40,429 bases of DNA, from positions 1-40,429 of the forward strand of contig CAYFGV010000005.1 of NCBI GenBank assembly GCA_964342845.1. The letters are read 5' to 3'. Source of the DNA: Candidatus Woesearchaeota archaeon. Its GTDB lineage: Archaea; Nanobdellota; Nanobdellia; SCGC-AAA011-G17; CAYFGV01. Every line of letters begins with the position of its first letter. The first letter of the stretch is position 1. The position numbers were made by a program. This document shows positions 21,001-27,000 of this stretch, one piece after another.

Positions 21001-24000
21001 GCAAAATAGTGCCCAGGTAGTGAATATTATGAATTTCTGCTTAAAACTTTCTAGCATTGCAAGGATTTCTACACGCGCGTGAAGTTTATAAAGGAGTTTA
21101 GCTTATTAGATGTATGGTTCATAAAAAAAGAGGAGAAATAATAAGACTTATTGAAAACGATGTTTCTATACCAAAAATTTCAAAAAGACTAAATGTTGGA
21201 AAATCGACTATATATTATCATTATAAAAAAATAAAAGGTAGAAAATATCAGAAGGCGAGAATACCTGAAGATGATGAAGTTTTAGGAGAATTTTTGGGTA
21301 TATTTGCTGGAGACGGGAGTTTTATTTTTGAAAAAAAATATAGCCACTATAAAATATCAATCTCTCTTCATGCAGTTGATGATAAAGATTATGCAGAGTA
21401 TATAAGGGGTTTAATTAGGAAAAACTTTAATAAAATTGCAAGACAATATGTTAGAAGCAATATAAATTCTTTAACTATTGAATTTTATTCAAAAGATATA
21501 TATGGGATGATAAAAGAATATTTGAATATATATCCAAATAAAACCTATGACGTTCATATAAAAAGGCAGTTAGATTCGTTATCTGATAAATTTCTAATCT
21601 CTTTTACGAGAGGGATAGTTGATACGGATGGTTGTCATAAGAAGGACGGCCGTATAGTTTTGTGTCTTACGTCGAAAGAAATGATAAATCAAGTTTCTCT
21701 AATTCTTAAAAACTTTGAGATTGGTAATAAAGTATATATTAGGAGAAAGAAATTACCTTCTAGGACTCAATACGAATTAACCATACCTAAAAGATATGTA
21801 AATAGGTATATCTCTTATATTGGATTTTCTAATAAAAGAAAATTAAATGCGCGAGCCGAGATTTGAATTCCCGATCTTTTAAAAGATTCTCGGGTCACAA
21901 GATTGGCAACCTTGTATTCTAACCACTGAACTACTCACGCATCTGCTTTTAGTAAAAAGTTAAGAATATTTAAGGTTTATGGTTGATTTAATCTTCTTTA
22001 TTTTTCTTTTTAAATATTTGTTCTCCTTCTTTTATTAAACTCTTTAATCTTGAATCATTAAATCTTGTAAATAAATCAGTACCTTGAAGTATAGTTAAAT
22101 ATTTTCTTAATTCAGCCTCAAGCTTTGAGTATACTCCTTCTAGAGAGCTTGGTTCTTTTTCAAATCTTCTTTTTCTGAATTTTTGACTGTAAATATGGGT
22201 TATTTTAAGATATCTTTGTAGATATTCTTCTTCTCTTTCGTTGTGTTGTTTGAATGTGCCTAACCTCATGAGTAAGCATTCAACATTCCCTTTGTATGTA
22301 AGGAAAATTTCTCTTTCTTTTACTATTTGGGGTAGCTTACTCTCTTCGAATTCAGTAACTTTAGTTTTTAAATCAAAATGTGTTGTTTTAGTATATTCTT
22401 CTGGTTTAATAGCAAATTTGCTCATCATTTTTGCAAGATATACATTTACATCTTCATCAAAAACAGTTTCATTTGATTCCATTTTTAGTCTAATTCTTGT
22501 TCTTAGGATTTTGTTTAAGAAAAAGAAATCAATTGGTTCTGCGGCGAATTCACGTATATATCTGGTTTCCCCTTGACTTTCTGTATTCGGGACTAAAGTA
22601 CAATATGAGAGATCTAAATAAGATGGGTTTTCCATTTTTTATGTATCTTTTGAATCTTTATAAAGTTTTAGGCTATTATTTCTATATTTTCAAAATAGGG
22701 TTTAATTGTTTCTTTTAATTTATTCAAATATTCTTTTGAGGTGTCTTTTTTTGTTTTGAATTTAATATCTATAAATTTTCCTTGATTTTTAAATGGTTGT
22801 AAACAGTATTTCTTTGGTTTTTTTCTTGTTATAGAATTTAACCATTTTGCTATTTTTATCATTTCTTCTTGAGTGTGGATGTCTTGTATAATTGTTGTTC
22901 TGAATTCGTAGTATTCTAAATTAGAAATTAATTTTATGCTTTTTTCAATATTTTCTAGGTCAACTTTTGAGTTTGTTACTTTTTGATAATTTTCTTTACT
23001 TGATTTTATGTCCATTGCAATGTAGTCTACTAAATGTGTTACTTCTTTTATTTTTTCTGGAAAACTTCCATTTGTATCGATTTTTATTAGGTATCCTAGT
23101 TTTTTAATTTTTTTTAGGAAATTTAAGTTTAGAGATAATAATGGTTCTCCACCAGTTATACAAACTCCTTCTAATTGTTTTTTTCTTTTAATTAAGAAAT
23201 CTATAGTTTCTTTTTCTGAGATATTTGTTTTATTTTCTTTTAAGACAAGTTCCGGGTTATGACAAAAACCACAATTAAAGTTACATCCAAAAAGAAAAAT
23301 AGTGGATGCTATCTTTTCTGGGTAATCTATTAGTGTTATTTTTTGTAAACCTTTAATTTTCATTCTTTACAAGGTTCAAACACCTTTCTGTCTTTCCATT
23401 CTGATTGTTTTCCTTCATTCCATTGTTCGACAGGACGTAAGTATCCTACTATTCTGGAATATCTTTCACATTTTGTTCTTTCCATTTTTTTAACCTCCTT
23501 TATTTTTCTTTGTACCCATTTTCTTGGTCACATTTTGGACAATATTCGTGATCTCCATTTAAGTAGCCGTGTTTTGGACATATTGAAAATGTAGGTGTTA
23601 TTGTGAAGTATGGTAAGTTATAGTTTTCTGCGATTTTTTTGATTAACAGTTTTACTGATTCTGTTGGTATTCTTTCTCCTATAAATCCATGGAAAACTGT
23701 TCCTCCTGTGTATTGTGTCTGTAAATTATCTTGCAAATCTAATGCTTCGAATAAATCGTTTGTATAGTTTACAGGTAGTTGTGATGAATTTGTGTAGTAT
23801 GGCTTTGCGTCATCTGTTATTACTGCTTTTTCATTTGCAACTATTATTCTTCCAAATCTTTGTTTGTCTTTTCTTGCTAATCTGTATGATGTTCCTTCTG
23901 CTGGTGTTGCTTCTAAATTGTATATGTTTCCTGTTTCTTGTTGAAACTCTTCTAGTTTAGTTCGCATAAATTTAAGAACTTTTATTGCAAATTCTCTTCC

Positions 24001-27000
24001 TTTAGGTGTTCCTATATTCTCTCCAGGCATAAGGTTCATTACTGATTCATTCATACCAACTAATCCGATTGTAGAGAAGTGGTTTTTCCAATATTGATTA
24101 AATCTTTTTTTTATGTCTCTTAAGTAAAATTTAGAATATGGGTATAAACCTCTTTCGCTGAATCTTTCGATTGCTTTTCTTTTTATTTCTAAGGATTCTT
24201 TCCCTAGTTCCATTAAATGGGCTAATTTTTCTAAGAAATCTTCTTCTGATGTTGAATTGAATCCTAGACGGGGCATGTTTATTGTTACAACACCTATACT
24301 TCCTGTTTGTGGGTTTGCGCCGAATAAACCACCTCCTCTTTTTCTTAGTTCTGTGTTATCTATCCTAAGTCTACAACACATACTTCTTGCATCTTCTGGT
24401 TTCATGTCTGAGTTAATGAAATTAGAGAAATAAGGAATACCATATTTAGCTGTCATTTCCCAGATTGGTTGATATTCTTGGTTATTCCAGTCAAAGTCTT
24501 TTGTTATATTGTATGTAGGGATAGGGAATGTGAAAACACGACTGTTTGCGTCTCCTTCTAACATACACTCTGCAAATGCTTTGTTGATTATTTTTATTTC
24601 TTCTTCAAATTCTTTGTATGTTTCTTTTTGAGGTTTTCCACCTATGATGACTGGTTCATCTTTCATGTAGCTTGGCACTTTTAAATCCATTGTAATATTT
24701 GTGAATGGAGTTTGAAATCCAACTCTTGTTGGAACTGCTAAATTAAATAAGAATTCTTGCATGCTTTGTTTAACTTCTTTGTATGAAAGATTATCATATC
24801 TTATAAAAGGTGCGAGTAGTGTGTCAAAGTTTGAGAATGCTTGAGCTCCTGCTGTTTCTCCTTGTAGTGTGTAGAAGAAATTCACCATCTGTAGGAGTGC
24901 TGTTCTAAGGTGTTTTGGTGGTTTTGATTCTACTTTTCCTACAACTCCTTTAAAGCCTGTTATTAATAAGTCTTTTAAGTCCCAACCTACACAATATGCT
25001 CCAAGTGTACCTAGGTCGTGGATGTGTATATCTGTATTTTCATGTGCTTTTCTTATTGCTTCAGGATAAATTCTTCTTATCCAGTAATTTGAGATTATTT
25101 TGGTTGCTAGGTAGTTGTTTAATCCTTGTAATGAGAAACCCATATTTGAGTTTTCTTTGACCATCCAGTCGTCTAGGCTTATGTAATCGTCTACAGCTTC
25201 AATTGTATCGAAGAGTCCTTTTACATTTCTTAATTGTTCATGGCTTTTTCGATATAAGATATATGCTTTTGCTGTTTTTGCGTGTCCTTCTTCTATTAGT
25301 GTTTTTTCAACTGTGTCCTGTACTTCTTCAACTTCTGGTATATCATTTTCTTTATGTTTTTCTTCGATAATTTTTATTGTCATATTTGAGAGCTCTTCAA
25401 CTCTTTCTTTGTTTGTTCCTCCAACTGCTTTTACAGCTTTCCAAATAGCTTCTGTGATTTTTTCTTGTTGGAATGGAACGACACTTCCATCTCTTTTTCT
25501 TATTTTTTTTATCATTTTAGGTTTTTTAGTTCTTTGTGAAACTCCTCTGGTTTTTTAAAATCTTTATAGACTGATGCAAATCTTAGGTATGCAACGTGGT
25601 CTAAATCTTTTAGTTTGCTTATTACGAGATTTCCTATAATTGAACTGGATATTTCTGTTGTATTATTCTTTTTCAAGTCTAATTCTATTTCTGAAATTAT
25701 TTGGTTTATTATATTGCTTGATATGTTTCTTTTTTCTGTTGCTTTATGTATTCCTTTTCTTATTTTTTCTTTGTTGAAGTATTCTTTTCCTCCTCCTTTT
25801 TTTACGACGATTAGATTAATTAGCTCTATTTTTTCGTAGGTTGTAAACCTGTTTTTACATTTCAGACATTCACGTCTTCTTCTGATTAGGCCTTTTGAAG
25901 GTCGTTTGTCTGTTACTTTTGTTGAATTATGGCTGCAGTATGGGCATTTCATAGAATGATATCACCCCTCCTTTATACAATATATTGTATACTAATCTAA
26001 TTTAGCTTACAACATTTTGATTTTATAGGATATGCTGATATATAAAGATTTATAGGATTGAATTGTTATTTTTTAGTTGATGTTTATTATTTAGGATTTT
26101 TTTTGTATGTCTTTGAAATCAAAAGCTTTTTTAATTGATAAAATAAAAGTTAGAATATGGAAATTCTCAAAGAGATCAAACCAAGCAAAATAGAAGAAGC
26201 AAAAATAAAGAAGATTGTTAAAGATTTTTTAGATAGGTTAAATAGGCGTTTGGATAAAGCTAAAGCTATTGCAGGTGGTTCTTATGCTAAAGGGACTTGG
26301 TTAAAAGGAGAACATGACATTGATATTTTTGTTAGATTTAAAGAAGACGAGGATAGTTCTAAGAAATTAAAACTTGCTTTAAAAAAAGGTTTTAAACAAG
26401 TTAAAGAACTTTATGGTTCTAGACATTATTTTCAAGTTAGGTTTAAAGATATAGATTTTGAGGTGGTTCCTGTTTTAGAAATAAAGAAGGCTGAAGAAGC
26501 TATCAATGTTACTGATGTTAGTTTTTTACATGTCGAGTATGTTAAAAAAGCAAGTGCTAAATTGAAAGATGAAATAAGATTAGTTAAAAAGTTTTGTAAG
26601 GCTAATGAATTATATGGTGCTGAGACACATATTAAAGGTTTTTCAGGATATGTTTTAGAAATTCTAGTGATTTATTATGGTGGTTTTGAAAAGTTTATTA
26701 AATGGGTTTCTGATTGGGGAGATAAAGTTATAATAGATCCTGCTAAGTTTTATAAAGGTAAAAATGAGATTTTAAAAAGTTTGAATGTTTCTAAAAGAAA
26801 AGGGCCTTTGATTTTAATAGATCCTGTGCAGAAAGAAAGAAATGCATCTGCTGCAGTTAATAAAGAGAAGTTTTTGAAGTTGAAAGAATTATGTAAAATT
26901 TATGATGGTGATAAGAGTTTTTTTATTAAGAAAGAATTTAATTTAGAAATGTTGAGAGATTATTTTGTATTTGAAATTAATCCTTTAACTGGACGTAAGG

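What a model noticed while it worked through the whole genome (the two positions that open the first line are those of the whole stretch)
22668..25952. Class III ribonucleotide reductase with its glycyl-radical loop on a separate 41-aa protein
In the nrdR-nrdD-nrdG operon the NrdD gene (g00306, C5:23500-25515, 671 aa) stops a few residues after its C-terminal zinc-ribbon cysteines and lacks the glycyl-radical motif. The motif (SRIVGY) lies on a separate 41-aa ORF (g00305, C5:23360-23485) in another frame, with its own AGGAGGT ribosome-binding site 7 nt before the ATG, followed with a 4-nt overlap by the activase gene nrdG (g00304). The radical-bearing segment of this anaerobic RNR is thus made as an autonomous micro-protein that must dock onto the catalytic barrel: a two-chain class III RNR, the layout of about half of the NrdD-bearing Nanobdellota sampled, comparable to the GrcA/YfiD spare part of pyruvate formate-lyase.
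Evidence so far: Sequence read directly. Not a sequencing slip: of 10 NrdD loci found in 41 genomes of the order, 6 (G000, G157, G024, G007, G032, G075) have the split with different junction sequences, 5 of them with GGAGGT(G) 6-8 nt before the small ORF's ATG; 4 (G019, G163, G164, G152) are contiguous. Call 42: 79 clusters of free-standing 36-72-aa homologues in a 5.8-billion-protein set, on contigs up to 202 kb; invariant C6, E7, S10, R11, G14, R17, P18, W22, N23 in 30 aligned. Call 163 (profile of the micro-protein against six-frame translations of 401 Nanobdellota genomes; my tally of the printed table, matches with E<=5e-14): the segment lies in a short open frame (39-147 aa) in 40 genomes, this one in [...]
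(Added by a program. Inside this text positions count along the whole contig: contig position 1 is position 1 of the stretch shown here. "Call 12" and the like, gene names such as g00115 and contig names such as C1 are that model's own, and its searches are not shown. The text may have been shortened before it was handed on; [...] marks where a part breaks off. The agent that wrote the report below was given it as the finding of a first reader that could run no searches.)

Follow-up and report, generated by a model that had tools for sequence, protein, structure and literature searches.

The report
Two-chain anaerobic ribonucleotide reductase
The oxygen-sensitive enzyme that makes DNA building blocks without air is encoded here in two pieces, a large catalytic body and a separate 41-residue peptide carrying the radical glycine; the same layout occurs in cultured lab bacteria, so it can be tested directly.

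Summary
Confirmed. NrdD (671 aa) stops after its zinc ribbon. The glycyl-radical motif lies on a separate 41-aa ORF with its own strong ribosome-binding site, overlapping nrdG. It is the only RNR found in this 85%-complete genome, under its only tandem NrdR boxes.

It is not an artefact. The split is in 25 of 47 scorable NrdD loci of the order. Across 64 split loci the junctions fall in all three frames. Strong SD sites occur in 50 of 64 split and 0 of 61 fused loci. A complex model docks the peptide where the fused tail sits (0.81, best control 0.00), as expected for halves of one fold.

It is not a Nanobdellota speciality. Finished replicons of Cupriavidus necator H16, Paracoccus denitrificans and Bradyrhizobium ottawaense have the same layout, and split forms are not one clade.

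Best reading: an obligate two-chain class III RNR. An exchangeable radical cartridge is plausible but unproven. It is not a GrcA member. Ten literature searches found no description. This scan reported split NrdDs before on other genomes. There are no expression or activity data.

The parts
25975..26022 (-). Tandem NrdR boxes (26022-26007 and 25990-25975, 16-bp linker) upstream of the operon
   Evidence: Both boxes match all six conserved positions named in PMC13584703 (passages); it is the only such pair in the 573-kb genome
25512..25952 (-). nrdR, transcriptional repressor (146 aa); its stop overlaps the nrdD start by 4 nt
   Evidence: TIGR00244 over its cut-off; sequence
23500..25515 (-). 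nrdD body, 671 aa: ATP cone, catalytic barrel and zinc ribbon, without the glycyl-radical loop
   Evidence: PF13597 positions 1-531 and PF03477; PRK08270 score 1046.8 against cut-off 548; model pLDDT 84.7 whose best fold matches are class III RNRs
25144..25152 (-). NxN flap (N122, N124)
   Evidence: Invariant in 37 split NrdDs; residues 123-124 touch the peptide in the complex model; role in P. copri NrdD from PMC11226230 passages
24991..24993 (-). C175, likely the redox-active cysteine on strand beta-A
   Evidence: Invariant; role inferred from PMC9669993 section 2.5
24370..24381 (-). Finger-loop motif MCCR (379-382), thiyl-radical site
   Evidence: Invariant; motif class
23896..23898 (-). 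E540, counterpart of P. copri Glu581 that bonds the Tyr after the radical Gly
   Evidence: Read from the alignment to 8p23 (allowing a 4-residue offset); invariant; in the modelled interface
23530..23580 (-). Zinc ribbon C646-x-x-H649 ... C659-x-x-C662, followed by a 9-residue tail and TAA
   Evidence: Sequence; C646, H649 and C659 invariant
23493..23499 (-). Shine-Dalgarno AGGAGGT of the small ORF, 7 nt before its ATG
   Evidence: -11.2 kcal/mol against an assumed anti-SD; reached by 1.5% of 330 long ORFs and 0.16% of 637 internal ATGs of this genome
23360..23485 (-). 41-aa glycyl-radical peptide (strand 4-9, loop SRIVGY with Gly14 at 23446-23444, helix 24-31)
   Evidence: PF13597 positions 531-562, E 3.9e-10; aligns to the T. 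maritima NrdD glycine loop (weak E 0.23); exact sequence on 10 contigs; purifying selection; complex model
22668..23363 (-). nrdG radical-SAM activase (231 aa); ATG overlaps the peptide's stop
   Evidence: TIGR02495 NrdG2 180.6 bits against cut-off 131.15

Best explanation
A working class III ribonucleotide reductase built from two chains. Shown by sequence: an NrdR-controlled operon gives NrdR, a 671-aa NrdD body that ends after its zinc ribbon, a separately initiated 41-aa peptide, and NrdG. Modelled: peptide residues 4-9 add a strand to the zinc-ribbon hairpin of the body (Cys6 beside C646 and C659), and the rest packs on the barrel, including E540 and the NxN flap, like the C-terminus of one-chain NrdDs. 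Inferred from the family: NrdG uses SAM to put the radical on Gly14; the radical passes to a finger-loop cysteine (MCCR) and NTPs are reduced with C175, using formate or thioredoxin (MCCR enzymes carry the parts for either). Inferred from ribosome-binding strength: the peptide is probably made in excess over the body. Speculative (about 0.4): oxygen cleavage at Gly14 then destroys only the peptide, and a fresh copy re-arms the body.
For: (1) It is the only RNR found in G000: no class I/II hit and no second glycine loop. It has tandem NrdR boxes and all catalytic motifs, invariant in 37 split NrdDs. (2) 25 of 47 scorable order loci are split, and 41 of the 80 named loci kept (36 fused, 3 free with no NrdD within 4 kb). 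(3) In 64 split loci the two ORFs are offset by 1, 2 or 0 frames in 31, 20 and 13 cases, with gaps of -74 to +211 nt. (4) SD of -9 kcal/mol or stronger in 50 of 64 split loci against 0 of 61 fused loci at the equivalent place; stronger than the nrdD SD in 44 of 55 and the nrdG SD in 58 of 61. (5) Differences by codon position 0.21/0.11/0.53 against 23 close split relatives. (6) The same split is in 8 of 11 plasmid or chromid records that I opened from cultured bacteria (2 fused, 1 peptide alone). C. necator H16 pHG1 NrdD has no RxxGY motif, and PMC2864759 (passage) states that the pHG1 nrdDG genes are essential for complete denitrification. (7) Complex model score 0.81, best of 3 controls 0.00; runs agree in at least 94% of contacts; partner pLDDT at least 78; the mark was reached by 116 of 157 solved and 2 of 215 mismatched pairs. 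Halves of a split gene tend to pass by likeness to solved structures, so this shows fit, not binding.
Against: There are no expression, proteomic or activity data. The complex pass may be memory of solved one-chain NrdDs, and the finger-loop cysteines (380-381) are not among the confident contacts (that stretch has low pLDDT). In this locus the peptide's frame is open about 8 codons before the nrdD stop (open frame 55 codons), so a -1 shift is not physically excluded. 14 of 64 split loci lack a strong SD. The anti-SD is assumed, since no 16S 3' end was found by exact pattern. G000 is 85% complete, so another RNR could be unassembled. In PFL, an engineered cut upstream of the loop (tPFL) abolished detectable YfiD binding (PMC8683613 passages), so such a cut does not by itself give a working pair. 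The H16 genetics is cited second-hand, and I could not see which DNA was deleted.
Confidence: 0.88

Rival explanations
1. Programmed frameshift or read-through joins the two ORFs into one ordinary NrdD chain.
For: The -1 frame is open for about 8 codons before the nrdD stop in this locus, and the junction is A-rich.
Against: All three frame offsets, in-frame stops and gaps up to 211 nt occur among 64 split loci; H16 has a 142-nt gap. No slippery heptamer lies before the stop; the A7 run is after it. A strong SD plus start codon appears only in split loci.
Confidence: 0.04
2. Assembly error, or a decaying pseudogene with a recent nonsense or indel lesion.
For: The window comes from an incomplete metagenome assembly with homopolymer runs at the junction.
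Against: Run contigs of three studies show the same stop, SD and ATG. The window's NrdD lies in a 25-row clade (SH-aLRT 98) of which 24 are split. Purifying selection on the peptide. The split is in finished records of cultured bacteria and in a one-contig, 100%-complete genome (G213).
Confidence: 0.02
3. The peptide is a GrcA-like spare for a different, intact NrdD (unassembled, or of a host cell), and the adjacent truncated body is inactive.
For: Free glycine-loop proteins do occur in genomes with an intact NrdD (G201-G204) and alone on a plasmid and a virus. G000 is 85% complete.
Against: The body keeps every catalytic motif, the peptide always follows the truncated body directly in split loci, and no other NrdD was found in G000.
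Confidence: 0.04
4. Within the two-chain reading: a neutral gene fission. The peptide binds once and for good, with no exchange and no benefit; fission and re-fusion happen freely at a flexible linker.
For: At least 16 changes of state on a 114-row tree; split forms are rejected as one clade (p-AU 4e-53 on 48 of those rows, picked after seeing the tree); fused forms nest among split ones (L006).
Against: The peptide's SD is stronger than that of nrdD in 44 of 55 loci (kin are not independent). Recurrent use of nearly the same cut point, and free-standing copies on a plasmid and a virus, suggest the piece is useful on its own.
Confidence: 0.5

Closest known systems
One-chain class III RNR, NrdD with NrdG (P. 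copri 8P23, S. thermophilus 9D3X, T. maritima 4COI/4U3E, phage T4 1H78); NCBIfam PRK08270 subfamily
   Same: ATP cone, barrel fold, NxN flap, double-cysteine finger loop, zinc ribbon, RxxGY loop, adjacent NrdG and NrdR control
   Different: The glycyl-radical domain is cut between zinc ribbon and glycine loop, and the loop with the C-terminal helix is a separate gene product. All the solved NrdDs are single chains.
GrcA/YfiD of E. coli and Y06I of phage T4 (spare parts of pyruvate formate-lyase)
   Same: A small free protein carries the radical glycine and must dock into a GRE barrel
   Different: GrcA rescues an oxygen-cleaved, full-length PFL, is 127 residues with a disordered N-terminal half (PMC8683613 passages) and belongs to the PFL-type family. 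Here the body never has a loop, the peptide is 41 aa, matches NRDD only, and is obligatory.
Split class II RNR NrdJa/NrdJb of Pseudomonas aeruginosa
   Same: An RNR naturally encoded as two genes (PMC4520616, search listing only)
   Different: B12-dependent class II; the second chain is not a radical-storage peptide (from my own knowledge)
C. necator H16 pHG1 nrdD / H16_RS32675 / nrdG
   Same: Same three-gene layout and cut point; NrdD 47% identical over 667 columns
   Different: 142-nt gap and a 66-aa peptide. RefSeq annotates the small gene merely as 'nrdD'; the papers I could see speak only of nrdDG.

Membership tests
Class III RNR (NrdD) | 10-stranded barrel of the NrdD type | tested here: met
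   PF13597 E 8.9e-181; the best Foldseek matches are all class III RNRs
Class III RNR (NrdD) | Finger-loop cysteine motif (MGCR or MCCR) and beta-A cysteine | tested here: met
   MCCR 379-382 and C175, invariant in 37 rows; motifs
Class III RNR (NrdD) | C-terminal zinc ribbon | tested here: met
   C646, H649, C659, C662 in sequence; metal binding itself not tested
Class III RNR (NrdD) | RxxGY glycyl-radical motif in the system | tested here: met
   On the 41-aa ORF
Class III RNR (NrdD) | Radical glycine on the same polypeptide as the barrel | tested here: not met
   Stop codon, new SD and ATG between them
Class III RNR (NrdD) | Cognate radical-SAM activase next to it | tested here: met
   TIGR02495 over cut-off
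Class III RNR (NrdD) | Glycyl radical by EPR and anaerobic NTP reduction | not testable with these tools
   Needs purified proteins
GrcA/YfiD autonomous glycyl-radical cofactor | PFL-type Gly_radical domain (PF01228) | tested here: not met
   The peptide matches only NRDD; no PF01228 match in G000
GrcA/YfiD autonomous glycyl-radical cofactor | A full-length parent enzyme with its own loop in the same genome | tested here: not met
   Only the truncated NrdD and one loop were found; genome 85% complete
GrcA/YfiD autonomous glycyl-radical cofactor | Restores activity after oxygen cleavage | not testable with these tools
   Needs an air-exposure and rescue assay
Programmed-frameshift gene | Conserved frame offset and slippery site before the stop | tested here: not met
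   Offsets 31/20/13 over three frames; no slippery heptamer before the stop

The most novel reading that the evidence does not exclude
The peptide is a replaceable radical cartridge. It is over-produced, activated by NrdG as a small unburied substrate, swapped into the barrel, and sacrificed to oxygen so that the 670-residue body survives. The same module is carried alone by plasmids, viruses and genomes with intact NrdD as a true spare part, which would be the first such system outside the formate lyases. It would also move the radical site of the C. necator H16 enzyme from NrdD to an overlooked 66-aa gene.
Probability: 0.4. Interest if true: 0.88.

Novelty: new variant of a known kind. Interest (0 to 1): 0.72.

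Why it matters
Reviews place the class III radical glycine on the C-terminus of the catalytic chain, and a June 2026 review says formate lyases are the only glycyl-radical enzymes with known small spare-part proteins (PMC13450708 passage). A widespread NrdD form whose radical sits on a 40-70-residue separate gene changes that picture. It gives a natural, soluble, tiny substrate for NrdG, which makes the open question of how an activase reaches a buried glycine approachable by structure and EPR. It offers a testable route to oxygen tolerance of an essential anaerobic enzyme, in facultative lab bacteria such as C. necator and P. denitrificans. It also warns annotators: size filters (under 400 aa removed) and frameshift detectors that flag adjacent ORFs hitting one target would hide or mis-call this gene.

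Tried and rejected
No RNA holder was listed for the stretch; this says nothing about expression. The peptide folded alone (pLDDT 80, pTM 0.44) gave no fold match at Z 2 or more, which is uninformative at this size. The AU test on all 114 rows did not finish, so a 48-row subset was used. For the 114-row tree I left out 6 long-branch NrdDs of other subclasses, L076 (broken core), 5 partial cores, duplicates and free-loop-only loci. Cys at Gly-8 is enriched in split loci (23 of 25 against 6 of 22 fused), but the independent-pairs test is not significant (7 pairs, median p 0.25), so it stays a hint. The sigma-70 promoter and terminator scan was at chance level. Protein trans-splicing was rejected: the peptide and the NrdD tail show no intein match. 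P0083 (418 aa) in the peptide's cluster is an unrelated SpoIVB peptidase, a clustering artefact. Siedow et al. 1999 is not held, and no held paper listed contains 'G650A'. Three of the six loci classed 'C' (L056, L069, L072) were pattern misses with a full CxxC pair, and I counted them as type A. Look-ups of earlier findings by place, by sequence and for the H16 link gave nothing relevant.
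Full report
OBSERVATION. The minus strand of 22668-25952 carries nrdR, nrdD, a 41-codon ORF and nrdG exactly as stated. 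NrdD ends nine residues after its last zinc cysteine. Its TAA is followed by AGGAGGT, seven bases and the ATG of the small ORF, whose stop overlaps the nrdG start. The two proteins tile Pfam NRDD without overlap (1-531 and 531-562) and TIGR02487 likewise. NrdG and NrdR pass their NCBIfam cut-offs. Two NrdR boxes 16 bp apart, each matching the six conserved positions given in PMC13584703 (passages), lie upstream and are the only such pair in the genome. This is the only RNR found in G000, which is 84.8% complete: no class I/II catalytic domain, no second glycine loop, no PFL-type radical domain. The nearest named relatives are labelled Woesearchaeota, Pacearchaeota or Nanoarchaeota.

NOT AN ARTEFACT. 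One run contig spans the junction with no difference (X1, possibly the source sample). Contigs of two other studies cover stop, SD and ATG unchanged but do not bridge by 31 bases. The exact 41-aa sequence is on 10 contigs, and 79 clusters of free 36-71-aa relatives were found (short proteins only). Of 201 genomes of the order, 48 have an NrdD over the cut-off. I examined the DNA of 47 (one is cut by a contig end): 25 are split and 22 fused. In a phylum sample 70 of 301 have a match, and by my tally of the table 27 show a truncated body plus a separate tail and up to 5 more have in-frame stops. Nine of the 27 are also in the order sample; G405, unpublished, counts only as one fused row.

SEPARATE TRANSLATION. 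Across 64 split loci (two known duplicates removed) the frame offsets are 31, 20 and 13 and the gaps -74 to +211 nt, which no single recoding event explains. An in-frame start with an SD of -9 kcal/mol or stronger is present in 50 of 64 split loci and 0 of 61 fused ones (30 of which have an in-frame start in that window); 14 split loci lack a strong SD, half of them from bacteria, mostly labelled Patescibacteria. The anti-SD is assumed. In G000 the peptide's SD is in the top 1.5% of 330 long ORFs, while nrdD and nrdG have none and rely on 4-nt overlaps. The peptide's SD beats that of nrdD in 44 of 55 loci and that of nrdG in 58 of 61. Kin are not independent and SD energy is not a translation rate, so excess production is an inference. 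Against 23 close relatives the peptide differs at 21%, 11% and 53% of first, second and third codon positions.

WIDER DISTRIBUTION. A search of plasmid records (151 records; 164) led me to open 11. Eight are split: C. necator H16 pHG1, Sulfuricurvum kujiense, Azospira I09, Paracoccus denitrificans, Bradyrhizobium ottawaense, Shinella zoogloeoides, Cereibacter azotoformans and Sulfuricystis multivorans. Two are fused (Acidiphilium, Geoalkalibacter) and one has the peptide alone (Allochromatium vinosum). RefSeq calls the small gene simply 'nrdD'. H16 NrdD (676 aa, 76.19 kDa, 47% identical to the window's) has no RxxGY motif, and the motif is on a 66-aa gene 142 nt downstream. PMC2864759 (passage), citing Siedow et al. 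1999, says the pHG1 nrdDG genes are essential for complete denitrification; it lists the CH34 genes as Rmet_5137 and Rmet_5139, skipping one locus number. From recall only (paper not held): Siedow et al. assigned the radical to G650 because G650A was dead. G650 of H16 NrdD is the glycine inside the zinc-ribbon knuckle C646-x-x-H649-G650, not a RxxGY glycine. If my recall is right, a split enzyme has been shown to be needed in vivo without the split being noticed.

EVOLUTION. On a tree of the catalytic core alone (114 rows, 541 columns, glycine loop excluded, quick IQ-TREE LG+G4) the window's NrdD lies in a 25-row clade (SH-aLRT 98) with 24 split members and one fused (L006, its nearest row). 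The state changes at least 16 times. One clade of split forms is rejected (p-AU 4e-53) on 48 rows chosen after seeing the tree; the full test did not finish. The tree is unrooted, so fission and re-fusion cannot be told apart, but both probably occur. The cut point varies: after the full ribbon in 52 of 64, inside it in 9, where the peptide brings a cysteine that would be the fourth ligand, and after a CxH or CxxD-type variant in 3 (three pattern misses reassigned).

STRUCTURE. The body models at pLDDT 84.7 and matches class III RNR structures best. NxN flap, C175, MCCR, E540 and three zinc ligands are invariant in 37 split bodies. In P. copri NrdD the flap and Glu581 hold the glycine loop, and the whole glycyl-radical domain is mobile and vanishes from maps in the dATP state (PMC11226230 passages), so the cut falls within a domain that already moves. 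The complex model of residues 100-671 with the peptide scores 0.81 against 0.00 for the best of three controls; runs agree in at least 94% of contacts and partner pLDDT is at least 78; the mark was reached by 116 of 157 solved and 2 of 215 mismatched pairs. The best contacts pair peptide residues 4-9 with ribbon strands 642-646 and 655-659. Halves of a split gene tend to pass by likeness to solved chains, so this shows geometric fit only. The finger-loop cysteines are not among the confident contacts.

MECHANISM. Most likely (0.88) body and peptide assemble by strand completion at the zinc ribbon, NrdG forms the Gly14 radical, and catalysis follows the class III route. MCCR enzymes have the parts for formate or thioredoxin use (PMC9669993 section 2.5). 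Whether the peptide exchanges after oxygen cleavage (0.4) or is a neutral, permanent second chain (0.5) is open. A caution from PFL: removing the residues before the loop abolished detectable YfiD binding (PMC8683613 passages).

KNOWN OR NEW. It works like a class III RNR and fails only the one-chain criterion. It is not a GrcA member. Ten full-text searches found no description; six phrases such as 'split NrdD' and 'split class III' gave 0 papers. I read passages of PMC4390871, PMC9531940, PMC13450708, PMC8683613, PMC3653736 (phage nrdD breaks are mostly introns and inteins, plus one unexplained fragmentation in phiAS4), PMC2864759, PMC3019208, PMC2795772, PMC11226230, PMC4493059, PMC13584703 and bioRxiv 10.64898/2026.05.13.725050, and passages plus section 2.5 of PMC9669993. 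I read no supplements and no whole text. Subscription papers (Siedow 1999, Wei 2014, RNRdb2 material) and unseen supplements may mention the small ORF. Earlier notes of this scan describe split NrdDs in eight other findings; they are unchecked leads, and I confirmed only the general architecture, on my own loci.

VERDICT. Real, widespread and apparently undescribed two-chain variant of class III RNR; interest 0.72.

Noticed in passing
L049:3770-4114, L082:3749-4111, L036:4226-4525 (genomes G201, G202, G204): Free 99-120-aa proteins with their own two CxxC pairs plus the NrdD glycine loop, in genomes that also hold an intact fused NrdD; in L036 directly downstream of it. These are candidates for true spare parts of NrdD.
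   Followed up: partly
L032 around 3990-4120 (G203): A 44-aa glycine-loop peptide with strong SD among genes that look mobile-element-like, far from the genome's intact NrdD
   Followed up: partly
L144:2680-3114 (ANMV-1 virus) and L142:3468-3677 (A. vinosum plasmid): The glycine-loop module carried without an NrdD body in the stretch opened: 144 aa with a zinc ribbon in the virus, 69 aa on the plasmid
   Followed up: partly
L086, L095, L097, L098, L101, L107, L110, L113, L128: The split falls inside the zinc ribbon, so the metal site would be shared by two chains; fused relatives L085, L087, L088, L112 and L116 have a lengthened loop at that place
   Followed up: partly
L006 around 3940-4110: A fused NrdD nested among split ones, with a long linker resembling tail plus peptide head: possible re-fusion
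   Followed up: partly
G221, G281, G282, G321, G323: A more distant NrdD type (open frames of 800-1000 aa) also ends before the loop, with the tail in a separate ORF, up to 1.2 kb away; G373 has two full NrdDs plus two free tails
   Followed up: no
L139:1259-3632 (C. necator H16 pHG1): G650, recalled as the published radical site, lies in the zinc-ribbon knuckle; the RxxGY motif is on H16_RS32675
   Followed up: partly
window 21114-21866 (+): 250-aa protein with an HTH and a LAGLIDADG_3 domain, a free-standing homing-endonuclease-like gene
   Followed up: no
window 21988-22635 (-): 215-aa ORF just downstream of nrdG with no Pfam match
   Followed up: no
window 26157-27353 (+): Archaeal-type CCA-adding enzyme, divergent from the nrd operon
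   Followed up: no
window 27363-29288 (+): 641-aa acidic protein with hydrophobic ends and many cysteine-rich repeats, no Pfam match
   Followed up: no
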